Of a stretch of 64,000 nucleotides of DNA, positions 45,348 through 53,681 are shown piece after piece. Under the pieces are notes generated by a model. That model did no database searches and had not been told where the DNA came from. It saw only the letters and a program-made list of their open reading frames with translations. How positions within the stretch are numbered: position 1 is the first letter of the stretch; each line of letters begins with the position of its first letter. Source of the DNA: Candidatus Altimarinota bacterium (GTDB taxonomy: Bacteria > Patescibacteriota > Gracilibacteria > CAIRYL01); NCBI GenBank assembly GCA_965250085.1, contig OZ252287.1:288001-352000 (forward strand), given 5' to 3'. Made by a program: the position numbers and the translations under genes.

Positions 45348-45538
45348 GATTTGAGAAAAAGAATTATGGTGGACCTTGTAACGTCGCAGATAAACCCGGT
45401 AGCCGAGGAGTTGCGGCGATGGGAAATCGTGCTGCGAGGAGAGAAACCGGCCGCCTGAATCTGGTTTGTAGACCGGCAGCGGGAAGACCGAGGACGTTCT
45501 CCAGACTACGCTTGAGTACCATGGAAGTCCATGGAGAA

Positions 45539-45811
45539 TGGTTACTCAGTGGTTACTTCACTCTTTCCTATCTTTTGGAGATATTTTATAAGATCTTGAT
45601 TCTAAAGAAGAAAAATGGAGCCGACGAGCGGATTTGAACCGCTGACCTATTGATTACGAATCAGGTATTTCCCTATTCTTCTTTCTTCGATCTGATACGA
45701 TGCGGTGCGATAACTCTTCATAAAACAGGGTGTTACCGGTCGTTAGTGAAATCACATGCTACGATGGAAAACGCTGTGAGATCATTCCTCGTGGTTACTC
45801 AGCGGTTACTT
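45539..45811. other. attP-like site for the tyrosine integrase: tRNA-Thr(CGU) 3'-half core flanked by arm-type repeats
   Basis: 45616-45664 is the reverse complement of ctgattCGTaatcaataggtcagcggttcaaatccgctcgtcggctcca. TGGTTACTCAG(T/C)GGTTACTT occurs at 45539-58 and 45792-811. Confidence 0.78.
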
Positions 45812-45854
45812 TTTGCCAGAACTCGGATCAAAGCGTGGAGAAGAGAGGAAGGAA

Positions 45855-47036
45855 ATGAAGCTGACAAAGCGAGCCATTGATGCGGCGAAGTTTTCTTCCG
45901 CGTCTTCGTCTTCCTCGAACAACAACACACCGGATTACCGATGGGATGACGCTATGCCCGGTTTTGGTGTGAGGATTTATCGAAGCGGGAAGAAATCGTT
46001 TGTGGTGTCGTACCGGGTTCAGGGTCGCAAACGGATCATGGTGCTCGGCAAATACGGAGTTCTCACGCTGGACGAAGCCCGCAAAAAAGCCCGCAAGGTT
46101 CTGGGGAAAGTAACGGACGGAAGAGATCCGAGTCGTGAGCGAATGGATTTGCTGAAGTCTCCAACAATGTCGGATTTGGCGAAGCGGTATCTGTCCGATC
46201 ATGCGCCGAAGAAAAAAGCGAGTAGTGCGAAAACAGATGAGCGAATGTGGGAACTACATATATTGCCGCGTCTCGGAAGCCGGAAAGTGTCTGCCATTAC
46301 GCGAGAAGATATTGATCGTCTGCATACAGGCATGAAGGACACGCCCTACGCGGCCAACAGAACACTTGCCCTTCTCTCAAAATCTCTTCACTTGGCAGAG
46401 GTTTGGGGTTGGCGTCAGGACAGTACAAATCCGTGCCGGCATATCCAGAAATATACGGAAGAAAAGCGGGAACGATTTCTGAGCGTGGAGGAACTCAAAC
46501 GATTGGGTGCCGTGCTGGATGAAGTGGAACGGGAAGCCACCGAGCTTCCTGGTGTTGTCCCCGCTCTGCGTCTCCTCCTTCTCACCGGCTGTCGTCTCAA
46601 TGAGATTCTGCGTCTTCGTTGGGAAGATATCGATGAGGTCAATCGGTGTTTCTATTTACCGGACAGTAAAACAGGGAAACGAATAGTCGTGGTCAGTGAA
46701 GGAGTTTTCTCAGTTCTGGAGAAGATGGAATGTGTTAAAGGAAACCCGTATGTGATTGCGGGAGCCAGAGAAGGTCAGCATCTGGTGAATCTCTCGAAGC
46801 CCTGGGGGCGTATCCGGAAGAGAGCGAATCTCGCAGATGTCCGGCTGCATGATTTGCGGCATACCTATGCCAGCTTCGGAGCTGGTGCTGGATTATCACT
46901 TCCACTTATTGGAAAAATGCTGGGGCATACACAAGCATCAACCACGGCTCGATATGCACACTTGGCGAATGATCCGGTACGACGGGCGGTCGACCTGGTG
47001 GGTGATGAACTGCTCAGTGCCCTTCATCAGAAATGA
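45855..47036 (+). CDS. Tyrosine recombinase/integrase with N-terminal arm-binding domain
   Basis: WD..PGFGVRI..SGKKSF arm domain; catalytic LLTGCR, SKTG, LHDLRH, LGH and TARY; SD present. Confidence 0.95.
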   Translation: MKLTKRAIDAAKFSSASSSSSNNNTPDYRWDDAMPGFGVRIYRSGKKSFVVSYRVQGRKRIMVLGKYGVLTLDEARKKARKVLGKVTDGRDPSRERMDLLKSPTMSDLAKRYLSDHAPKKKASSAKTDERMWELHILPRLGSRKVSAITREDIDRLHTGMKDTPYAANRTLALLSKSLHLAEVWGWRQDSTNPCRHIQKYTEEKRERFLSVEELKRLGAVLDEVEREATELPGVVPALRLLLLTGCRLNEILRLRWEDIDEVNRCFYLPDSKTGKRIVVVSEGVFSVLEKMECVKGNPYVIAGAREGQHLVNLSKPWGRIRKRANLADVRLHDLRHTYASFGAGAGLSLPLIGKMLGHTQASTTARYAHLANDPVRRAVDLVGDELLSALHQK

Positions 47037-47529
47037 GCACGAAGAAGGAGGATATCGGGATAGAGGACAGGAAGGATCGATCGATAGGGTGCGAAACTAA
47101 TACTCCGCTCACCCACTGGCACAACCTGCCATTGTGCAAGGAGTTTCCGTCCTCCCGATCTTTGCAGTCGGGAGAACTCCAACTTTGCACGAATGCTTTG
47201 TTGTGCTCAGCGAGTCAAGTGACAGAACAAGAAATTCCTCCAACCTCCCCGCCACCAACCATCAGCCTCGGCTGACAGGTCTTCCACGGCTGACAGCTCT
47301 TCAACGACTCTTCCTACCGTTTCTTTTTTCTGTCATCTGTATGAAGTCTGTCTCTGGTGCACATTCAGAAGATACTGAAGAAGCCCTGGAAGTACTTGGA
47401 AGTTCTTTGTTTCCAGGAGTATGAGGATTCCTTGCGTACCCGTTGACTCTACCCGCTTCCTCTGCCCGAATGACGGGTACGGCAAACGGATACTGAATCC
47501 GGGTACGGCTTGCCGTGTGTCTTGGGACC

Positions 47530-48789
47530 CTACGGATTTTTGTCGAGCAGGCGTTCCAGTTCGTCGGCGAGATCCTGGTCAATCACAAGGTGGGTCACGC
47601 AGCATTTCTTCACAGCCGTAAGAGCAACCTTCGCTTTGAGCTTGCCATTGGCAACGGCAACGACTCCCATCCGTTCATTTAGTGCGATGCTCCTAAAACA
47701 ACGGTAGCGGATTCCCAAGCAGGCCGTGTTAAATGGCTTAATCCATTCATCGAACTCGCTGTCGGATATGGATGGATGGGAAAGGATCACGCCACCGATG
47801 TCCCCCGCAATGTACCGAGAGAGATCTCGCTGTTGCCGGCGTGTTAATCGTGCTCGCAACGTTGGCGTGGGATTATCACCAAGAGCCCCCATGCCACAAA
47901 TCAAACCCTCGGCTTGATGAATCAGAGCGTCGGGATCGTTCTTGTCTGATCCAAAGACGCGTCGATAACCAAAGCCTTCTTGGTAGAACTTCCGCAAGAG
48001 ATCCATAACTTCGAGGCGATCGAGGCGAAGGGGCTTATTACCCCCCTCTATAGCTCTGTCCATGTCCTCTGTGAAGTCCAGGAAAGCGGGTACAGCCGCA
48101 AGACTGGGCGGAGAGTCACTCCCCCAGATGAGAGCAAGGCGCTTAGCAATAACCGAGGCGCTTTGACCGATATCTCTTGGGCGACCACGGAAAATGACTT
48201 CTCCAGCCGCCGGAAAGACAATCGGCGGATTTGAAGGTTTCCGATCTGTCAGCTGCGCGAGGCGTGCAGCGAGGTATTGTGGTGTCTCGCCCCAAGTGAC
48301 TCCGACGACCTGAGGCTGGTTTCTCATCAGCCAAGCGACTACTTCAGCCGCTTTGAATGCCGTATCCTTCTTCCCCCCTCCATCCACAGGAGCAATATGA
48401 ACGGCTCGAAGAGAACCTGGACGTCTTGATTTGGGCTCCTGCAATTCCTTCAGCTTGTCGACCAAAGAGATCTCACGCTCTCGATGGCGCAGGACTCCAT
48501 CGCAGATCTCTCTGAGCTTCTCTTCGTGTTTTTCTGAAAACTCTCCTGTCCAGCGCTTCTGGAGACCAAACCGATCCACCAGCTTGGAGACCATGCGAGA
48601 CACGGTGGCTTGGCTGACCCCTCTTGGATCATCGCCGGTCTGACCAGCAGCTTCCAGTCGCCTTGCCAACTCTGCCTGCGAAAGATCATCAAACAGAAGA
48701 AGCGCCAATAGCTGCAGCTCCTTTTCACTGAGTTCCGGGAACAACTCTTCGACCGGCTCTTGGTCTGTGTCTGTGTGCTCATCACTCAT
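47530..48789 (-). CDS. SorC/DeoR-like transcriptional regulator (HTH plus sugar-binding domain)
   Basis: LSQAELA..VSQATVSRM HTH; VGVTWGET, GDIGG, VAVANG..KA and THLVIDQDLA. Confidence 0.75.
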   Translation of the reverse strand: MSDEHTDTDQEPVEELFPELSEKELQLLALLLFDDLSQAELARRLEAAGQTGDDPRGVSQATVSRMVSKLVDRFGLQKRWTGEFSEKHEEKLREICDGVLRHREREISLVDKLKELQEPKSRRPGSLRAVHIAPVDGGGKKDTAFKAAEVVAWLMRNQPQVVGVTWGETPQYLAARLAQLTDRKPSNPPIVFPAAGEVIFRGRPRDIGQSASVIAKRLALIWGSDSPPSLAAVPAFLDFTEDMDRAIEGGNKPLRLDRLEVMDLLRKFYQEGFGYRRVFGSDKNDPDALIHQAEGLICGMGALGDNPTPTLRARLTRRQQRDLSRYIAGDIGGVILSHPSISDSEFDEWIKPFNTACLGIRYRCFRSIALNERMGVVAVANGKLKAKVALTAVKKCCVTHLVIDQDLADELERLLDKNP

Positions 48790-48936
48790 ATGGCGGAGTT
48801 TATCCTACCGCCATGATGCAAATCTGTTTCGCCATTGAATTGACAATTCATCGCATTGTATCCTACGATGCCATCTACGGAGATAACCGATGCCGCAAAG
48901 CAACCAATTCCAGACCTGTTTTCTTGGAGAAACAAC

Positions 48937-49806
48937 ATGACAAAACTCGCAATTGTCGCCAGCGGACTCATCCTCACCCTGTTCTCAGGAGTGCTGAGCG
49001 CAAAGCCGGCCATGGAATGTGAGCCGAGGAAGTTGGAACTAGAGCCGGTTCTCGGCCACGAGATGACCGAGACGATTACATGCACGGCCACACGAGATCT
49101 TGGTCGTACTCATCCGTGGGTCAGCTCGGAGGGTCAGTCCTACATCACCCATATCGAGCCCAATAGCCCGATCGAGGTATTGAAGGGTGACGAGATCATC
49201 TACGAGATCTCGTTCTTCGTCCCTGAAGATGACATACATGCCACTGTCGATCTGACTTTCCATGTTCGTGAGTATCGCCCTGGAAGGAAAGGAAGGACGT
49301 ACTCGGGACCGGTGCCGGCCAAGTTGAATTTGGTTGAAAAGAACTGGATTCCGTTAGAAGGAGATAGGTTCAGTTTTTTTTATCCTCCGGTCTTAGATTT
49401 CGACTTTCCTCTCGTGATTACCGAAGGTAGCCATGTCAATCAAACAAAGGTGAATATATCCGATGCGGTCGATAGCGTATCGCCTTATTTTTTCGTGTTG
49501 TCAATGCACTCAACGGAAGCTGAGACGATTATCGAGATTAATCCGAAATTAGATTTCCTCGCCAGACACCACGGAACAGAGGTACTCGCGAATGGGAATG
49601 AACTCCTGACCGTTGACCCCGCCAATCATGTGAGTGACGAGCGTTTCGGACCCTACCCTTCAACGTTTATTTTGGATAGAAGCAGAGAAATCGCCTTTAC
49701 GGTAAACCTGTCTCAAGACCCCAACCCAGATCTATACGATGAGTTTGGAGATCACGAATTACATCGGATTCTGGTCGAAATCTCGAGAACCTTAGTAGCG
49801 GAATAA
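48937..49806 (+). CDS. Secreted hypothetical protein
   Basis: GGAG SD; signal peptide MTKLAIVASGLILTLFSGVLSA; beta-rich N-terminal domain. Confidence 0.7.
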   Translation: MTKLAIVASGLILTLFSGVLSAKPAMECEPRKLELEPVLGHEMTETITCTATRDLGRTHPWVSSEGQSYITHIEPNSPIEVLKGDEIIYEISFFVPEDDIHATVDLTFHVREYRPGRKGRTYSGPVPAKLNLVEKNWIPLEGDRFSFFYPPVLDFDFPLVITEGSHVNQTKVNISDAVDSVSPYFFVLSMHSTEAETIIEINPKLDFLARHHGTEVLANGNELLTVDPANHVSDERFGPYPSTFILDRSREIAFTVNLSQDPNPDLYDEFGDHELHRILVEISRTLVAE

Positions 49807-49818
49807 GAGGAGAAGCAA

Positions 49819-50502
49819 ATGAACGGAAATCGTCAGGCAATAATCGTCATGATTCTTTCAACCGTTCCGGTCTTAGCCAGCGGTGAAACACCTGAGTGCC
49901 ATGAAGAAATGGCTCGCCTCGATGGTGTGGCTGCCTATTCCAACGAAGTCATACCTTCGCCGGTGTCGTGTGGCGGTCGAGGGACGTATGGCAACCAATA
50001 TCAATGCGTGGAATTCATCGACCGTTACTACGCCGAGGCTCTTGGAGTTTCTGGTACCGAAGGCTGGATTGCTAATGGTGGCGACTATTTTGGAAAGGCA
50101 AGCGAATTTGGCCTTGAAGCATACAAGAATGGAGATGCTGGAACGCCTCCCAGAAAGGGTGACATCTTAGATTTTGGCCGGCCAGGGACGGAAATCGGTC
50201 ACGCTGCAATTGTGAGCGGTTTTGACCGGGACTCAATGCTTGTCCACATTATTGAGCAGAACTGGTCGTTTGATGGTGTCGCTAGACTTAGCATTGAGCA
50301 AAAAGCCGATGGGAAGTGGTACATGCCACCGAGGGGGAATAGCACTCCTTATGAGATTCTTGGGTGGCTCCGGCTCCCAGGCTCGACACCACCACCCGCC
50401 GACTGCACGCCAGCTTTACGGAGGGCGAAGCAATGCGTGGCAGCTGTAGAGGAGCGTCTGGCACTCCCCGAATTTGGTGTCAGGTCTTCTGAGGAAGCAT
50501 GA
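49819..50502 (+). CDS. CHAP-domain peptidoglycan amidase/endopeptidase
   Basis: Signal peptide; YQCVEFIDRY (catalytic Cys), GHAAIV (His), IEQNW and LGWLR. Confidence 0.88.
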   Translation: MNGNRQAIIVMILSTVPVLASGETPECHEEMARLDGVAAYSNEVIPSPVSCGGRGTYGNQYQCVEFIDRYYAEALGVSGTEGWIANGGDYFGKASEFGLEAYKNGDAGTPPRKGDILDFGRPGTEIGHAAIVSGFDRDSMLVHIIEQNWSFDGVARLSIEQKADGKWYMPPRGNSTPYEILGWLRLPGSTPPPADCTPALRRAKQCVAAVEERLALPEFGVRSSEEA

Positions 50503-51008
50503 TGCCTGAATATCCATCCAGAATTTTGATAGAGCAGTCGATTCGATGCTGGGAAGCTCAAACAGAAATATCGGGAAAGCTTTCTTCTGAGTTAAGATCT
50601 CTTTGGATCGCTTCACTATCCGCGATCGCCGTTTGCGGAAATTTTCTCTCTTCTAGAGATCCTCTAAATTCAGAATGGCAGATAGGGAGACTATTGGTTG
50701 TTGGCGGGCTTTGTCTATTTGGGGTATGCCTCTTGACGTTGTCTTTTTGGAGACAAGGTAGCCGCGACTCCAACAAGGACGAACTACCGTTCTATAATCG
50801 CCAAGAAATAATGCTTCAGGATCAAGTGTGGAATGAGCTTGCACCCTTGGAGCAAATGGCGGTCCTTAAACAGTACACTATAGCCTTGAAATTGGCAGAC
50901 GAAAATTGTTGGGTCGAAAGCGTAGTTCGACGAAGAGCGCGAGCTTTCTTTTCGGGAGGCATTTTCCTAGTCCTTATAAGTGTTGTTGGCGGGTTTCTCT
51001 ACGCGTAA
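50499..51008 (+). CDS. Hypothetical membrane protein (about 3 TM)
   Basis: ATGA overlap with the CHAP gene; three hydrophobic segments. Confidence 0.6.
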   Translation: MMPEYPSRILIEQSIRCWEAQTEISGKLSSELRSLWIASLSAIAVCGNFLSSRDPLNSEWQIGRLLVVGGLCLFGVCLLTLSFWRQGSRDSNKDELPFYNRQEIMLQDQVWNELAPLEQMAVLKQYTIALKLADENCWVESVVRRRARAFFSGGIFLVLISVVGGFLYA

Positions 51009-51039
51009 AAGGGGGTATCAATGAACACAGGCGGAGTAG

Positions 51040-51387
51040 ATGGGTAGTTTGCATCAAATAAATGGTGGGGTTCGTGGAGGAGAGAGCCCTCAAGATGAAG
51101 TTGCCTTGACAACAAAGCTTATCATTGATAAGCTCTTTTCACATATTAAGCAACTTTTGGTCGAATACGAAAAACACAAACCGGCAGCGGAAGAGCTCAA
51201 AACGGAATCTCCGTCACAGGCACCGACTGTGCCCTTGGCCACGGGACACGAGACGATGATCAGGGAGGAAATTCAAGCAAGTATCAATAACCTGATCTTA
51301 CAGGAAGAAGCAGGCAGGCGCAGACATAGGCAAATCGAGGAGCGAAAGAGCAACAGTCTTTTTTTTAGACTTTGGTGCCGGATCTAA
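51040..51387 (+). CDS. Hypothetical protein
   Basis: 115-aa helical ORF with GGAG SD. Confidence 0.5.
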   Translation: MGSLHQINGGVRGGESPQDEVALTTKLIIDKLFSHIKQLLVEYEKHKPAAEELKTESPSQAPTVPLATGHETMIREEIQASINNLILQEEAGRRRHRQIEERKSNSLFFRLWCRI

Positions 51388-51920
51388 CGCGCTCCAAGCT
51401 ACAGATAAATGCGGCGTTGGTGGAATAGGCACGATGCGTCTTCTTATTGTTTGTCGCTAGCGTCGACTGATCTTTGCGGACCGCTTCACTTTCAAAGGGA
51501 GCGTACATCGACTGACTGACCTCGCCATCTTGCACACATCTTCCCTGTACTACTCTCCAAGGAATTCGAAGAGGGCATACCCCTTCTTCACCGCCCCCGC
51601 CCCTGGCAGACCACACACCGGAGGCAGCCCGGCAATGCAGGGCTTCCAGAGCAATTGGGCAGAGCTGTGCTCGGGGCCGCCCAATTGCAATCTTGCTCCT
51701 CGGTGCCGCAGCGCGGCATCCCGAGCACACACCGCTCACACACACGCCCACCGGCGGCCATGCCGCCTCTTCCTGCTGTCCGGGTTCTGATTCCGGTGAC
51801 GAGAATGAGAACAGATATCGGCTCTTCGGCTTCACGATCGGCAACTGAGAACCTGGACACGATGCCGTGTCATCGGAGAATGGAGGATACGCTTCCTCTT
51901 CTTTCCTTCTCGATCCTCTG

Positions 51921-52067
51921 ATGGCAGTAACGGTCTCCGAAGCACGGCAGATCCTCGGTTCTGATGCAGACCCCTTGTCGGACGAAGACATCCGAGAAAT
52001 GCTGGCGAGCTTGTACCTTCTTGCCGAAGAACTCCTTGATCTGCAGGAGAAGGGAGGATTACAGTGA
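51921..52067 (+). CDS. Small helical protein upstream of the serine recombinase
   Basis: MAVTVSEARQILG..LSDEDIREM..LY.LAE; amphipathic, immediately 5' of the recombinase. Confidence 0.55.
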   Translation: MAVTVSEARQILGSDADPLSDEDIREMLASLYLLAEELLDLQEKGGLQ

Positions 52068-52116
52068 TCGCACTGCAGATATTAGAAATTGGAAAAATCT
52101 TTCTCCCCTTGTTCGA

Positions 52117-53649
52117 GTGCCATGCGCTGTGCTCTACTGCCGGGTCTCCAGTCAGAAACAAGTTCGTGAAGGACATGGGCTCAGTTCACAGGAAACCACC
52201 TGCCGGCAATACGCTCGGGAACAAGGGTTTACGGTTGCTCGTGTTTTTACCGATGATGCTTCGGGAGGAGGCGATTTCTGGAAACGGCCGGGGATCTGTC
52301 AGCTCCTTGCATTCCTCGAAGAACAGGAAGAGAAGAAATATGCCGTTATCTTTGACGACATCAAGAGATTTGCCCGCGACACGGTCTTTCACCTGAAACT
52401 TCGGCAGGAACTGGCGGTGAGAAATGCCTATCCCCTCTGTCCCACGTTCCGCTTTGATGATTCTCCAGAAGGGGCGTTTGTAGAAACGGTCATTGCGGCG
52501 ACAGCAGAACTCGAACGCAAGCAGAACCGACGGCAGGTCATTCGTCGGATGAAGGCGCGCCTTCAAGCCGGGTACTGGGTTTTCGGTCCCCCACTCGGAT
52601 ATCGGTATGGGAAGAAACGAGGGCAGAAGATTCTTGTTCCAGATGTACCGGCGTCTGATGCCGTGACGGAGGCTTTGAAGCAATATGCTTCTGGAGAACT
52701 GCCCACGCAGCGGAGTGTCGGACGCTTTCTCCAACAACAAGGGCGCTTCCGGCGCTCGTCAACACACCGATCATTCCCGGCAGAAACCATACGGCGATTG
52801 CTCAGCAATGAGATCTATTCCGGCTGGTGTGTCTGCACCAAATGGAATCTGCGGGTGAAGGGAATTCATAGGGCTCTTATCAGCGAAGAAACGTATCGAA
52901 GGATTCTCAGCAGACTCGATCACCGGAAGAAAACGAAGGGAGTGAGATGTCTCAAGAAACGGGAAGAATTTCCCTTGCGAGGATTTCTGCGATGCACTCG
53001 ATGTGATCGGCAGATCTCTTCCTATTGGGCCAAAGGACGAAGCAAACGATACGCCTACTACGGGTGCCCGAATCCCGGATGCTTCAATCTACGGAAAGAG
53101 AAGATGGAGGACCAGTTTCTTGATCGTCTCCACGATGCCGTGCCTTCTGCAAGTTCTGTAAGACTCCTCGAAGCCGTGCTGACCGATGCCTTTCAGAACA
53201 GACTGACCACACGGGAACAGATACGAACCGCACGGCGGAAAGCAAAACCTCAGATCCAGAAGAAGATCGATTCCTGTCTTGATGCCTTGCAGAGTGCTTC
53301 AGCTCCCGCTGTCCGACAGATCTATGAAGAACGAATCGAGACCCTGCAAGCCGAACTCGACCAGCTGGCAACAGCAAGAAGCGATGAAGCGCAATACACT
53401 CTTGAACCACTCCTCACCAGTGGCAGAGATATTCTGCAAAACCCGGTGCGAACCTGGAAAAACAGCGATCTGAGTCGTCGCCAGATTATCCAGAAACTCG
53501 TCTTCACTCCGCCTATTGCCTATCACAGAGATTCAGGACTTCGAACCGCTCGATTCTCGCTTCTCTACCGTCTCATCCGACAGTCGGAAAAGGGGAAATC
53601 CTGTTTGGTGGACCCGGCTGGATTTGAACCAGCGACCAATCGGTTATGA
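52117..53649 (+). CDS. Large serine recombinase (start uncertain; ORF is open from 51964)
   Basis: YCRVSS catalytic motif, DDIKRFARD, G.W..GPPLGY recombinase domain, Zn ribbon CTRC..YYGC..C and coiled coil. The 3' end reads through the antisense strand of the tRNA. Confidence 0.93.
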   Translation: MPCAVLYCRVSSQKQVREGHGLSSQETTCRQYAREQGFTVARVFTDDASGGGDFWKRPGICQLLAFLEEQEEKKYAVIFDDIKRFARDTVFHLKLRQELAVRNAYPLCPTFRFDDSPEGAFVETVIAATAELERKQNRRQVIRRMKARLQAGYWVFGPPLGYRYGKKRGQKILVPDVPASDAVTEALKQYASGELPTQRSVGRFLQQQGRFRRSSTHRSFPAETIRRLLSNEIYSGWCVCTKWNLRVKGIHRALISEETYRRILSRLDHRKKTKGVRCLKKREEFPLRGFLRCTRCDRQISSYWAKGRSKRYAYYGCPNPGCFNLRKEKMEDQFLDRLHDAVPSASSVRLLEAVLTDAFQNRLTTREQIRTARRKAKPQIQKKIDSCLDALQSASAPAVRQIYEERIETLQAELDQLATARSDEAQYTLEPLLTSGRDILQNPVRTWKNSDLSRRQIIQKLVFTPPIAYHRDSGLRTARFSLLYRLIRQSEKGKSCLVDPAGFEPATNRL

Positions 53650-53681
53650 GCCGACTGCTCTAACCACTGAGCTACGGGTCC
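53606..53681 (-). tRNA. tRNA with CAU anticodon, most likely tRNA-Ile2 (lysidine type)
   Basis: GGACCCGTAGCTCAGTGGTTAGAGCAGTCGGCT-CAT-AACCGATTGGTCGCTGGTTCAAATCCAGCCGGGTCCACCA; paired G1-C72 excludes fMet, and the acceptor and D arms are Ile2-like. Confidence 0.88.

What the first reader, a model, noticed from the sequence alone, without database searches (positions are those of the whole stretch)
45367..53649. Attachment site inside the serine recombinase gene: integration and excision swap the enzyme's C-terminus
Seen in sequence: the recombinase ORF crosses the right-hand 9-bp core (ttg gtg gac c) and finishes in antisense tRNA-Ile2 as ..KSCLVD-PAGFEPATNRL*. At the left core the same bases continue in the same frame for 27 codons, LVTSQINPVAEELRRWEIVLRGEKPAA* (45375-45458). 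Circularisation would therefore produce a different, longer enzyme with an amphipathic helix ending in -AA. Established: C-terminal -AA is the core of the ssrA/ClpXP degron; att-split genes are known for SSV1-type archaeal tyrosine integrases and for mycobacteriophage BPs-type repressors. Inference: this is a self-editing recombinase whose circular and integrated isoforms differ in activity, directionality or stability, giving a state switch that may not need a classical RDF.
Basis: partly seen in the sequence, partly recalled or inferred. Interest (0 to 1): 0.88.

Follow-up and report, generated by a model that had tools for sequence, protein, structure and literature searches.

The report
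Serine integrase split by tRNA insertion
An 8-kb mobile element sits at the end of a tRNA gene, and its own large serine integrase gene spans the junction, so insertion and excision swap the enzyme's last two helices; hundreds of related integrases at tRNA and tmRNA genes show the same layout.

Summary
An 8.2-kb, GC-rich island (window 45367-53614) is bounded by TGGTGGACC, which is the 3' end of tRNA(CAT). The large serine recombinase (LSR) ORF crosses the right copy and ends in antisense tRNA. The 27 codons after the left copy are its native tail. A 91%-identical homologue (P0002/L023) carries body and tail as one gene. About 50%-identical homologues keep the tail motif NPVAEELRRW.

The layout holds across the family. 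In 73 of 80 homologous genomic loci the LSR ends in an antisense tRNA, 72 of 73 in the same codon register. Relatives in the host's own class end in tmRNA genes.

- a second, decayed copy at tRNA-Ala;
- a P4-like tyrosine integrase with its own tRNA-Thr-type attP, so the element has two integration modes;
- prior art: Dehalococcoides DsiB (2011), an LSR gene overlapping its att site at ssrA.

AlphaFold2 models the tail as two confident helices. They are lost in the integrated isoform.

Not shown: that the swap controls direction or stability. The -AA end is not conserved in the close clade, though it recurs in 4 of 35 intact tails.

Verdict: a real feature and a new variant of a known kind.

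The parts
45367..45375 (+). attL core: a displaced copy of the tRNA 3' end (TGGTGGACC)
   Evidence: Homology with the second copy E2 and with L023 begins exactly here.
45375..45458 (+). Displaced last 27 codons plus stop of the serine recombinase (LVTSQINPVAEELRRWEIVLRGEKPAA*)
   Evidence: The tail is contiguous with the body in P0002/L023. Between E1 and L023 it shows 5 synonymous and 1 non-synonymous codon change. It is modelled as helices 494-503 and 505-519 with pLDDT 85-93.
45616..45664 (-). 49-nt tRNA-Thr(CGT)-like 3' part, the presumed attP core of the tyrosine integrase, unrecombined here
   Evidence: In L023, L024 and L025 the related elements are flanked by 65-, 50- and 48-bp tRNA repeats. 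Several different contig flanks join at 45616 in the sample's contigs.
45813..47036 (+). P4-like tyrosine integrase. The probable ATG is at 45855, my arithmetic from the ORF translation.
   Evidence: Pfam Arm-DNA-bind_3 1.2e-17, Phage_int_SAM_3 and Phage_integrase 2.3e-20. PHROG 1 integrase 2e-64. It is 97.6% identical at DNA level in E2.
47530..48789 (-). 419-aa cargo protein of unknown function, possibly a regulator
   Evidence: Only weak Pfam Sugar-bind (4e-07) and Sigma70_r4_2 (0.008) matches. No match in PHROGs or NCBIfam. 95% identical in L023.
48856..49806 (+). 316-aa cargo protein of unknown function
   Evidence: No family match. 97% identical in L023.
49819..50502 (+). CHAP-domain protein, a putative peptidoglycan hydrolase
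   Evidence: Pfam CHAP 7e-10. PHROG endolysin 1.5e-06.
50499..51387 (+). Two small ORFs (169 aa and 115 aa) of unknown function in a variable segment
   Evidence: No family match. Contigs of the sample skip 50415 to 51675, and L023 differs here.
52117..53649 (+). Large serine recombinase, integrated isoform (510 aa from the GTG start; the open frame runs from 51964). Its last 11 residues are encoded by antisense tRNA.
   Evidence: Pfam Resolvase 7e-23, Recombinase 1e-06, Zn_ribbon_recom 3e-05. PHROG 95 integrase 4e-64. The model has the fold of solved serine integrases. Residues 494-510 have pLDDT below 50.
53606..53614 (+). attR core (TGGTGGACC), inside codons L-V-D of the recombinase and forming the tRNA 3' end
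53606..53681 (-). Intact tRNA(CAT), probably Ile2; this is the attB target
   Evidence: ARAGORN. Rfam tRNA 76.3 bits. Its 3' end is compared with the genome's other tRNAs.

Best explanation
E1 (window 45367-53614) is a small integrative element with two site-specific integration modules. It entered the CCA/acceptor end of tRNA(CAT) through its large serine recombinase (LSR). The LSR's attP core (..CCTGTT TGGTGGACC TTGTAACG..) lies inside its own codons L497-V498-D499.

Shown:
- Integration leaves 499 codons at attR. These read on into antisense tRNA, adding 11 arbitrary residues.
- The last 27 codons, a conserved two-helix tail, end up 8.2 kb away at attL.
- The uninterrupted 526-aa gene exists in nature.
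- The same split, in the same codon register, is the rule in a large LSR family that targets tRNA and tmRNA 3' ends.

Inferred (about 0.4): the tail-bearing enzyme, made only when attP is intact, is the integration-competent form. Losing the tail on integration changes how the enzyme controls synapsis, so the integrated isoform no longer re-integrates and may favour or permit attL x attR excision.

Inferred alternatives: the truncated enzyme is simply weaker or locked (about 0.3), or the swap is neutral (about 0.3).

The tyrosine integrase is a second, alternative entry route into tRNA-Thr-type sites. It is used by relatives in other phyla and is unused in this genome.
For: Boundaries:
- A 9-bp repeat and a GC step mark the island.
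- The second copy E2, at tRNA-Ala(GGC), shares only TGGTGGA at its two ends. Homology with E1 starts and stops at that core.

The joined gene exists in nature:
- P0002/L023 is 91% identical at protein level and 85-93% at DNA level, with the tail contiguous.

The tail is selected:
- The motif is kept in P0003-P0019.
- Conservation of positions 500-519 is 0.61, against 0.65 for the whole protein and 0.48 for the coiled coil.
- The tail shows 5 synonymous and 1 non-synonymous change.

The pattern holds across the family:
- 73 of 80 genomic loci end in an antisense tRNA, 72 of 73 in the same register, over 14 isoacceptor types.
- The signature V-x3-[GRSCW][FLIVM]E[PLHQR] occurs in 76 of 120 and 76 of 150 homologues, against 6 of 843 control windows.
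- Displaced tails follow 14- and 10-bp repeats in L066 and L081.
- In the host's class, 5 loci are at tmRNA 3' ends and 2 at tRNAs, of 9 examined.

The LSR, not a tyrosine enzyme, is the integrase:
- A homologue of the E1 tyrosine integrase is found in 0 of 73 tRNA-abutting loci.
- No PF00589 gene lies within 100 kb on the element side in 4 complete records.
- E1's own tyrosine-type attP is intact.

Structure:
- The intact form has pLDDT 92.3, with tail blocks at 85, 92 and 93.
- The integrated form has pLDDT below 50 over residues 494-510.

Established knowledge:
- In the SPbeta integrase the RDF helix packs beside F532, and an 'extreme C-terminal element' has been linked to directionality (PMC11722253, passages and reference list read).
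Against: - No isoform has been assayed.
- No circle junction or empty attB for E1 was seen in the sample's contigs, and contigs drop rare forms.
- No same-genus genome is held that could show an empty site.
- I had no model coordinates, so where the tail packs (coiled-coil hinge or elsewhere) is unknown.
- In the close clade most sampled genes are in the intact state: 18 of 18 proteins P0002-P0019 and 3 of 3 loci, the loci integrated through the tyrosine route. LSR-mode insertion may therefore be the rarer route there.
- E2's LSR is frameshifted, and 5 of 73 LSRs are interrupted. That fits decay after a one-way insertion.
- Dyad symmetry of the att sites is weak, at most 10 of 25 positions.
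Confidence: 0.8

Rival explanations
1. The att/gene overlap is real but functionally neutral. The attP site happens to overlap the 3' end of the integrase gene, the tail is dispensable, and both isoforms work alike.
For: Integrated-form tails are arbitrary and range from one residue (..SEMVL*) to more than 60. Even so, 68 of 73 integrated LSR genes keep at least 400 uninterrupted codons. McMurdie et al. also list a 'trivial explanation' of a variable C-terminus.
Against: The tail is as conserved as the DNA-binding domains. It shows mostly synonymous change. It is modelled as two confident helices that vanish in the integrated form. A dispensable tail should drift.
Confidence: 0.3
2. One-way lock. 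Integration truncates and disables the LSR, as with SSV1-type split integrases (recalled), so the element is fixed unless a full-length enzyme is supplied in trans.
For: E2's LSR has decayed to frameshifted pieces. 5 of 73 LSRs are interrupted. 73 of 80 genomic loci are found in the integrated state. The junction helix is lost in the model.
Against: Most integrated genes are still intact up to the junction. LSR phylogeny shows frequent change of target tRNA: 31 label changes on 68 tips, against 38-48 for shuffled labels. That implies continuing mobility. The displaced tails in E1, E2, L066 and L081 are still open.
Confidence: 0.3
3. The tyrosine integrase, not the LSR, inserted E1 at the tRNA. 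The LSR frame crossing the junction is incidental.
For: P4-like tyrosine integrases are the classical tRNA-targeting enzymes (Islander paper, PMC4383910, passages read). One lies about 440 bp from attL. A 7-bp identity block resembles a tyrosine-recombinase overlap region (recalled).
Against: Its own tRNA-Thr-like attP (45616-45664) is intact. Relatives that use that route have 48-65-bp repeats, not 7-9 bp. The junction falls on the same LSR codon in 72 of 73 loci that lack this integrase.
Confidence: 0.03
4. Chance repeat or assembly artefact.
For: A 9-bp repeat alone is weak: 2 of 100 shuffles give two copies. A 27-codon open frame alone is unremarkable.
Against: Three independent contexts break at the same base. 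A 17.7-kb contig in three runs of the same sample bridges attL; that sample may be the source of the assembly, so this is not independent support. E2's outer flank carries the host's usual post-tRNA motif ttcgactc.
Confidence: 0.01

Closest known systems
DsiB, the ssrA-specific large serine recombinase of Dehalococcoides genomic islands (McMurdie et al. 2011, PMC3146451; passages read)
   Same: It is an LSR of about 540 aa and the integrase of small non-conjugative islands at a tDNA 3' end. [quoted passage not shown] The authors already suggested it may be fully functional only on the circle. Relatives of the E1 LSR in the host's own class sit at tmRNA genes in the same way.
   Different: E1 and 73 of 80 homologous loci target tRNA genes. 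The repeat is 7-14 bp at the CCA/acceptor end, not 20 bp reaching the T-loop. No DsiA, ParB or Mom-type module was found in E1. E1 adds a tyrosine integrase. The conserved native tail is shown here and was not shown there.
SSV1-type archaeal tyrosine integrases with attP inside int (recalled; review PMC8371274 seen only in a search listing)
   Same: Integration into a tRNA gene splits the integrase gene itself.
   Different: It is a different enzyme family (tyrosine). The split there is in the body of the gene; here only the last 27 codons are exchanged.
Integration-dependent immunity of mycobacteriophages BPs and Brujita (recalled; no paper read)
   Same: attP lies inside a gene, so the integrated and free forms encode different C-termini. 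An ssrA-like degron is removed by integration.
   Different: There the split gene is the repressor and the integrase is a tyrosine enzyme. Here the recombinase itself is split, and a degron is unproven.
Canonical phage serine integrases (SPbeta SprA, Bxb1, phiC31, LI/A118)
   Same: Same domain order and fold. Foldseek gives E 5e-17 to 1e-11 against 9dxd, 9dxh, 9iu2 and 9tep. Direction is set by the coiled coil and an RDF, and the extreme C-terminus of SprA has been implicated.
   Different: Those enzymes have attP outside the gene (recalled). [quoted passage not shown] The main text of Durrant et al. 2022 contains no occurrence of 'tRNA'.
P4-like tyrosine-integrase tRNA islands (Islander type)
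   Same: The second module of E1 has an Arm-DNA-bind_3 plus Phage_integrase protein beside a 49-nt tRNA 3' copy. Relatives L023-L025 are flanked by 48-65-bp tRNA repeats.
   Different: In this genome that module is not the one that made the junctions.

Membership tests
Large serine recombinase (serine integrase) | N-terminal resolvase catalytic domain with the serine nucleophile | tested here: met
   PF00239 7.3e-23 over residues 55-204. Y58 C59 R60 V61 S62 are invariant across 50 sequences.
Large serine recombinase (serine integrase) | Recombinase domain plus zinc ribbon with an inserted coiled coil | tested here: met
   PF07508 scores 29.0 bits against a cut-off of 21.1. PF13408 scores 24.8 bits, just under its 25.3 cut-off. 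Cysteines C293, C296, C317 and C322 are nearly invariant. The model has long helices at 345-393 and 397-419. Foldseek matches full-length integrase structures.
Large serine recombinase (serine integrase) | Short att sites exchanged at a 2-bp crossover, leaving only a few shared bases | tested here: inconclusive
   Shared cores are 9, 7, 14 and 10 bp, which is compatible. The crossover dinucleotide and the half-site symmetry are not resolved.
DsiB-type tDNA islands (McMurdie 2011) | The LSR gene overlaps the att site at its 3' end and reads into the antisense tDNA | tested here: met
DsiB-type tDNA islands (McMurdie 2011) | The target is ssrA, with a 20-bp repeat and insertion in the T-loop | tested here: not met
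   E1 and E2 are at tRNA genes with 9- and 7-bp repeats at the acceptor/CCA end. Class relatives L107, L108, L110, L113 and L115 are at tmRNA genes.
DsiB-type tDNA islands (McMurdie 2011) | Integration module with the small serine recombinase DsiA plus RecF-like, ParB and Mom genes | tested here: not met
   None of these domains was found in E1's ORFs.
DsiB-type tDNA islands (McMurdie 2011) | Sequence homology to DsiB (ACZ62382) | not tested
Ten tmRNA-type representatives looked up by name returned no organism names.
P4-like tyrosine integrase module | Arm-binding domain plus catalytic domain, next to an attP that copies a tRNA 3' part | tested here: met
   Related elements are inserted in this mode.
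ssrA-like C-terminal degron | C-terminal -AA conserved and needed for ClpXP turnover | tested here: inconclusive
   The -PAA end occurs in E1, E2 and L023. Only 1 of 20 close-clade tails has it. It occurs in 4 of 35 intact tails overall, against 0.6% expected. Proteolysis cannot be tested here.

The most novel reading that the evidence does not exclude
A very large family of serine integrases (873 clusters at E<=1e-30) are generalist integrases for tRNA and tmRNA 3' ends. Each cuts inside its own coding sequence. The reaction it catalyses therefore removes or restores a two-helix C-terminal module that acts as a built-in directionality switch, so integration and excision are governed by which isoform the DNA state encodes rather than by a separate RDF. 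Because the core is the near-universal CCA/acceptor end, such enzymes could be natural landing tools for tRNA genes across phyla. In this case a near-identical element is shared between an Acidobacteriota MAG and a Patescibacteria genome.
Probability: 0.25. Interest if true: 0.9.

Novelty: new variant of a known kind. Interest (0 to 1): 0.75.

Why it matters
Serine integrases are the main tools for unidirectional DNA insertion, and how they choose direction is an active structural question.

This is a natural family in which the recombination event rewrites the enzyme's own C-terminus. It offers a directly testable, RDF-independent way of setting direction: two isoforms and four att substrates.

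It also contradicts the working rule that only tyrosine integrases target tRNA genes (PMC4383910, 2014). Island finders that require a tyrosine integrase at tDNAs will therefore miss these elements, and gene callers will report chimeric C-termini made of antisense tRNA.

The two-integrase design, and the about 90% identical copy in another phylum, suggest a bet-hedging strategy for broad host range, reaching even a small Patescibacteria genome.

Tried and rejected
Empty site in relatives. 30 relatives all have the tRNA, but none is of the same genus. Only the right flank is syntenic, in 3 loci. This gives no test.

Reads. 4 runs from one sample, held as Logan contigs only. No joint for an empty attB or a circle junction of E1 was listed, and attR is bridged by fewer than 31 letters. 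This is no evidence either way.

att-site dyad symmetry. The best score is 10 of 25 positions, which is uninformative.

Target specificity from the LSR tree. The association with tRNA type is only weak: 31 changes against 38-48 in shuffles (FastTree, 68 rows; L056, L071, L079, L096 and L100 dropped as shorter than 400 aa). I read this as frequent target switching, not as proof of specificity.

Phage and plasmid collections. There was no tblastn match for P0002, at E<=1e-20 in phages and E<=1e-40 in plasmids. IMG/VR gave 3 loci of 17 pattern matches. The elements are not evidently phages or plasmids.

Rfam. It found only the tRNA. The 'Plastid-ycf2' hit on the opposite strand is below its threshold and is an artefact.

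Cargo function. Nothing beyond the CHAP domain.

Literature. Searches found no report of serine integrases at tRNA genes. One search found the DsiB paper. One search found no later dsiB work in the held library. PMC7192596 (the TIGER paper) is not held. Supplements are closed, so the att tables of Durrant 2022, the TIGER/Islander database and McMurdie's additional files may already list such cases.

I could not read model coordinates, so the tail's contacts are unknown.

Full report
THE SEQUENCE

The window lies in a single-contig genome of 1.37 Mb (G000). Host GC is 0.35-0.44. Between about 45,500 and 53,999 it rises to 0.45-0.59.

ARAGORN finds a tRNA with anticodon CAT at 53606-53681 on the minus strand. 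Rfam agrees at 76.3 bits. Its last nine bases, read on the plus strand as TGGTGGACC, occur only once more in the window, at 45367-45375 (0.21 expected, 2 of 100 shuffles reach two).

The ORF 51964-53649 is a large serine recombinase (LSR) with Resolvase, Recombinase and Zn-ribbon domains. It runs through the right copy and ends ..KSCLVD-PAGFEPATNRL*. After the left copy the same frame reads LVTSQINPVAEELRRWEIVLRGEKPAA*.

The real start is probably the GTG at 52117, by alignment with homologues. That gives 510 aa for the integrated form and 526 aa for the joined form.

THREE INDEPENDENT CONTEXTS FIX THE BOUNDARIES

(a) A second element in the same genome. E2 (G000:C1:603159-612475, opposite orientation) abuts tRNA-Ala(GGC). 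Its left 1,672 bp are 97.6% identical to E1, beginning exactly at the core. Its LSR end is 83.8% identical up to the core. The two E2 junctions share only TGGTGGA: ATGGTGGACCTTGT on the left and TTTGGTGGAGCATATGG on the right. The crossover therefore lies within the last 7 nt (TCCACCA) of the tRNA. E2's outer flank reads ttcgactcg, a motif that follows several other tRNAs of this host. E2's LSR is broken by frameshifts and a stop.

(b) A relative in another phylum. L023, on a 3.3-Mb contig of a Candidatus Multivoradales (Acidobacteriota) MAG, holds a relative that is 85-93% identical at DNA level. There the LSR body and the tail are one continuous gene (..CCTGTTTGGTGGACCTCGTTACATCG..).

(c) The protein P0002 from that record. 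It is 526 aa long, 91% identical to E1's LSR, and ends ..KSCLVDLVTSQINPVAEELHRWEIVLRGEKPAA.

THE TAIL IS A SELECTED PART OF THE PROTEIN

The 18 closest homologues (P0002-P0019, 48-91% identical) all carry ..[LMV]V[DE]-x5-6-N/H-P-x-x-E-E-L-x-R-W...

In that clade of 20 sequences the majority-residue frequency over tail positions 500-519 is 0.61. The corresponding values are 0.65 for the whole protein, 0.61-0.64 for the recombinase and zinc domains, and 0.48 for the coiled coil. The last seven residues score 0.2.

Between E1 and L023 the 27 tail codons differ by 5 synonymous and 1 non-synonymous change. The body has 67 synonymous and 44 non-synonymous changes in 499 codons.

AlphaFold2 on P0002 with 67 aligned sequences gives mean pLDDT 92.3. 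The junction lies in helix 494-503, the tail forms helix 505-519, and the 10-residue blocks there score 85, 92 and 93. The E1 integrated isoform, modelled with the same alignment, keeps the rest of the fold but has pLDDT below 50 over residues 494-510.

The model matches full-length serine-integrase cryo-EM structures (9dxd, 9dxh, 9iu2, 9tep; E 5e-17 to 1e-12). By sequence, only catalytic domains of solved structures are found.

THE SPLIT IS A FAMILY TRAIT

More distant homologues (about 40% identical, mostly Alphaproteobacteria) end in ..SEMV followed by peptides such as EPRGIEPLTS or LLERIELSTSPLPRECSTSEL.

I fetched DNA for the best 80 of 578 relatives in one-genome-per-species contigs. In 73 of the 80 loci the 3' end of an antisense tRNA gene lies at the end of LSR homology. 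In 72 of those 73 it is in the same codon register, xTG GTG, which is the complement of CACCA. The tRNAs are Thr(GGT) 21, Ala(GGC) 17, Ala(CGC) 8, Met/CAT 5, Tyr 5, Arg 8, Leu 5, Val 2, Ser 1 and Lys 1. The seven others are L023-L025 (intact tails), L027 (runs off its contig) and L058, L086 and L095 (unclear).

From tRNA geometry I derived a signature for an antisense T-arm in this register: V-x3-[GRSCW][FLIVM]E[PLHQR]. It is found in the last 110 residues of 76 of 120 homologues from the word-indexed search and 76 of 150 representatives from the exhaustive search. It occurs in 6 of 843 other 110-residue windows of the same proteins.

The exhaustive search counts 873 clusters (at 50% identity) with E<=1e-30.

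Two alphaproteobacterial loci are short enough to show the other end. L066 has a 14-bp repeat 7.1 kb upstream, followed in frame by ARPEGQTSNSLLDTLTGW... L081 has a 10-bp repeat 10.1 kb upstream, followed by VLLERENLNSLFETLQEWERHL... These resemble the intact tails of P0085 and others.

In the host's own class, 15 of 200 other genomes carry the family. Of 9 loci examined, 5 abut the 3' end of a tmRNA gene: L107, L108, L110 and L113 by Rfam, and L115 by ARAGORN. Two abut tRNAs: L109 at Ala and L114 at Lys.

WHICH ENZYME MADE THE JUNCTION

E1 also encodes a P4-like tyrosine integrase at 45813-47036 (Arm-DNA-bind_3 and Phage_integrase). Four results argue against it:
- Just upstream of it lies an intact 49-nt copy of the 3' part of a tRNA-Thr(CGT)-like gene (45616-45664, minus strand). 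That is a classical tyrosine-type attP and it is unrecombined here.
- The three chromosomal loci with intact LSR genes all carry a homologue of this tyrosine integrase (88, 55 and 49% identical). Each is flanked by a long tRNA repeat: 65 bp at tRNA-Thr(TGT) in L023, 50 bp at tRNA-Arg(ACG) in L024, and 48 bp at tRNA-Ala(GGC) in L025. That is the tyrosine mode of insertion.
- None of the 73 tRNA-abutting loci has a homologue of this integrase within the fetched flanks (tblastn E<1e-6).
- In four complete chromosomes (G201-G204) the nearest PF00589 gene on the element side is 186 kb or further from the LSR. This assumes that C1 coordinates equal those of the record. For G205 I could not map the contigs.

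So the LSR is the enzyme linked to the CCA-end junction. E1 belongs to a two-integrase lineage that can enter tRNA genes in two ways.

In G000 all 40 tRNA genes encode CCA. Five end in TCCACCA, and two of those five are occupied, by E1 and E2.

On an LSR tree of 68 loci, tRNA identity changes 31 times, against 38-48 changes for shuffled labels (five interrupted genes dropped). This points to frequent target switching, as expected if common tRNA features are recognised.

WHAT THE SWAP DOES IS NOT SHOWN

My preferred reading (about 0.4) is that the tail-bearing enzyme, encoded only when attP is intact, is the integration form, and that loss of the two helices alters control of synapsis.

The basis is indirect. 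In the SPbeta integrase the RDF helix packs between the second DNA-binding domain and the coiled-coil hinge, next to F532. [quoted passage not shown] This comes from passages and the reference list of PMC11722253; the Abe et al. paper itself was not read. I could not see where the tail packs in my model.

A lock model and a neutral model remain open, each at about 0.3.

The degron idea fares as follows. -PAA is confined to E1, E2 and L023 within the close clade. However, 4 of 35 intact tails end in -AA, three of them as -LAA, where 0.6% would be expected from composition. None of the tRNA-type ends does. This is a hint for some lineages only.

COMPARISON WITH WHAT IS KNOWN

[quoted passage not shown] The main text of the large LSR survey by Durrant et al. 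contains no 'tRNA'. Seven searches found no report of LSRs at tRNA genes.

The principle is nevertheless in print. McMurdie et al. [quoted passage not shown] Those islands have a 20-bp repeat and insertion in the T-loop.

What is added here:
- tRNA targets, at the CCA/acceptor end.
- Direct evidence for a conserved, structured native tail.
- The size and phyletic spread of the family.
- The two-integrase design.

I could not test whether DsiB is a sequence relative.

No match was found in phage or plasmid collections.

LIMITS

- No empty site is available from a close relative.
- The only sequencing data are contigs from one sample, possibly the source of the assembly. They show neither a circle nor an empty site.
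- They do show several different flanks joining at 45616, the tyrosine-type junction, and an L023-like variant in the same sample (loose end at 45467).
- Supplements were closed.

VERDICT

The finding is a new variant of a known kind, with interest 0.75.

Noticed in passing
G000:C1:603159-612475 (outside the window): A second, related element (E2) sits at tRNA-Ala(GGC). Its tyrosine-integrase end is 97.6% identical to E1, its LSR end only 83.8%, so it is a mosaic. Its LSR is broken by frameshifts and a TAG stop.
   Followed up: yes
L023 (Acidobacteriota MAG) against window 45367-53614; loose end at window 45467: An element 85-93% identical in DNA sits in a Thermoanaerobaculia MAG. The window's host looks like a Patescibacteria of the Gracilibacteria/Peregrinibacteria group. 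An L023-like variant is present in the same sample's contigs. This suggests recent transfer between phyla, perhaps between an epibiont and its host.
   Followed up: partly
Downstream of many tRNA genes of G000: Two short motifs recur directly after the CCA end: ttcgactc (after Arg-CCT, Leu-CAG, Glu-TTC, Leu-CAA, and at the original tRNA-Ala site of E2) and (c/g)agttgaatt (after Arg-TCG, Thr-TGT, Gly-TCC, Ser-TGA, Ser-GCT). Their function is unknown.
   Followed up: no
G052, G059, G089, G098, G107, G080, G175: LSR homologues in class relatives contain 5-21 in-frame TGA codons yet align over their full length. This is consistent with TGA recoding in those genomes. L114 reads through under table 25 and ends at tRNA-Lys.
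   Followed up: partly
Window about 27325 and at least 13 other places in G000 (through L019:1708-2160): A stretch of about 450 bp from a relative's locus matches many places in G000 by tblastx. It may be a multicopy gene or an insertion sequence.
   Followed up: no
Window 50415-51675: Contigs from three of the four runs, all from the same sample, join 50415 to 51675, skipping 1,259 bases. L023 also differs in this segment. The small-ORF region next to the LSR is variable cargo.
   Followed up: partly
C-termini of P0244, P0298, P0332: Three divergent intact-tail integrases end in -LAA, like the tmRNA tag, in a family that itself targets tmRNA and tRNA genes.
   Followed up: partly
Window 51388-52116: About 730 bp upstream of the LSR start have the highest GC of the island (0.59). 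They hold only a doubtful 208-aa minus-strand ORF, which is poorly conserved in L023. This may be a regulatory region.
   Followed up: no
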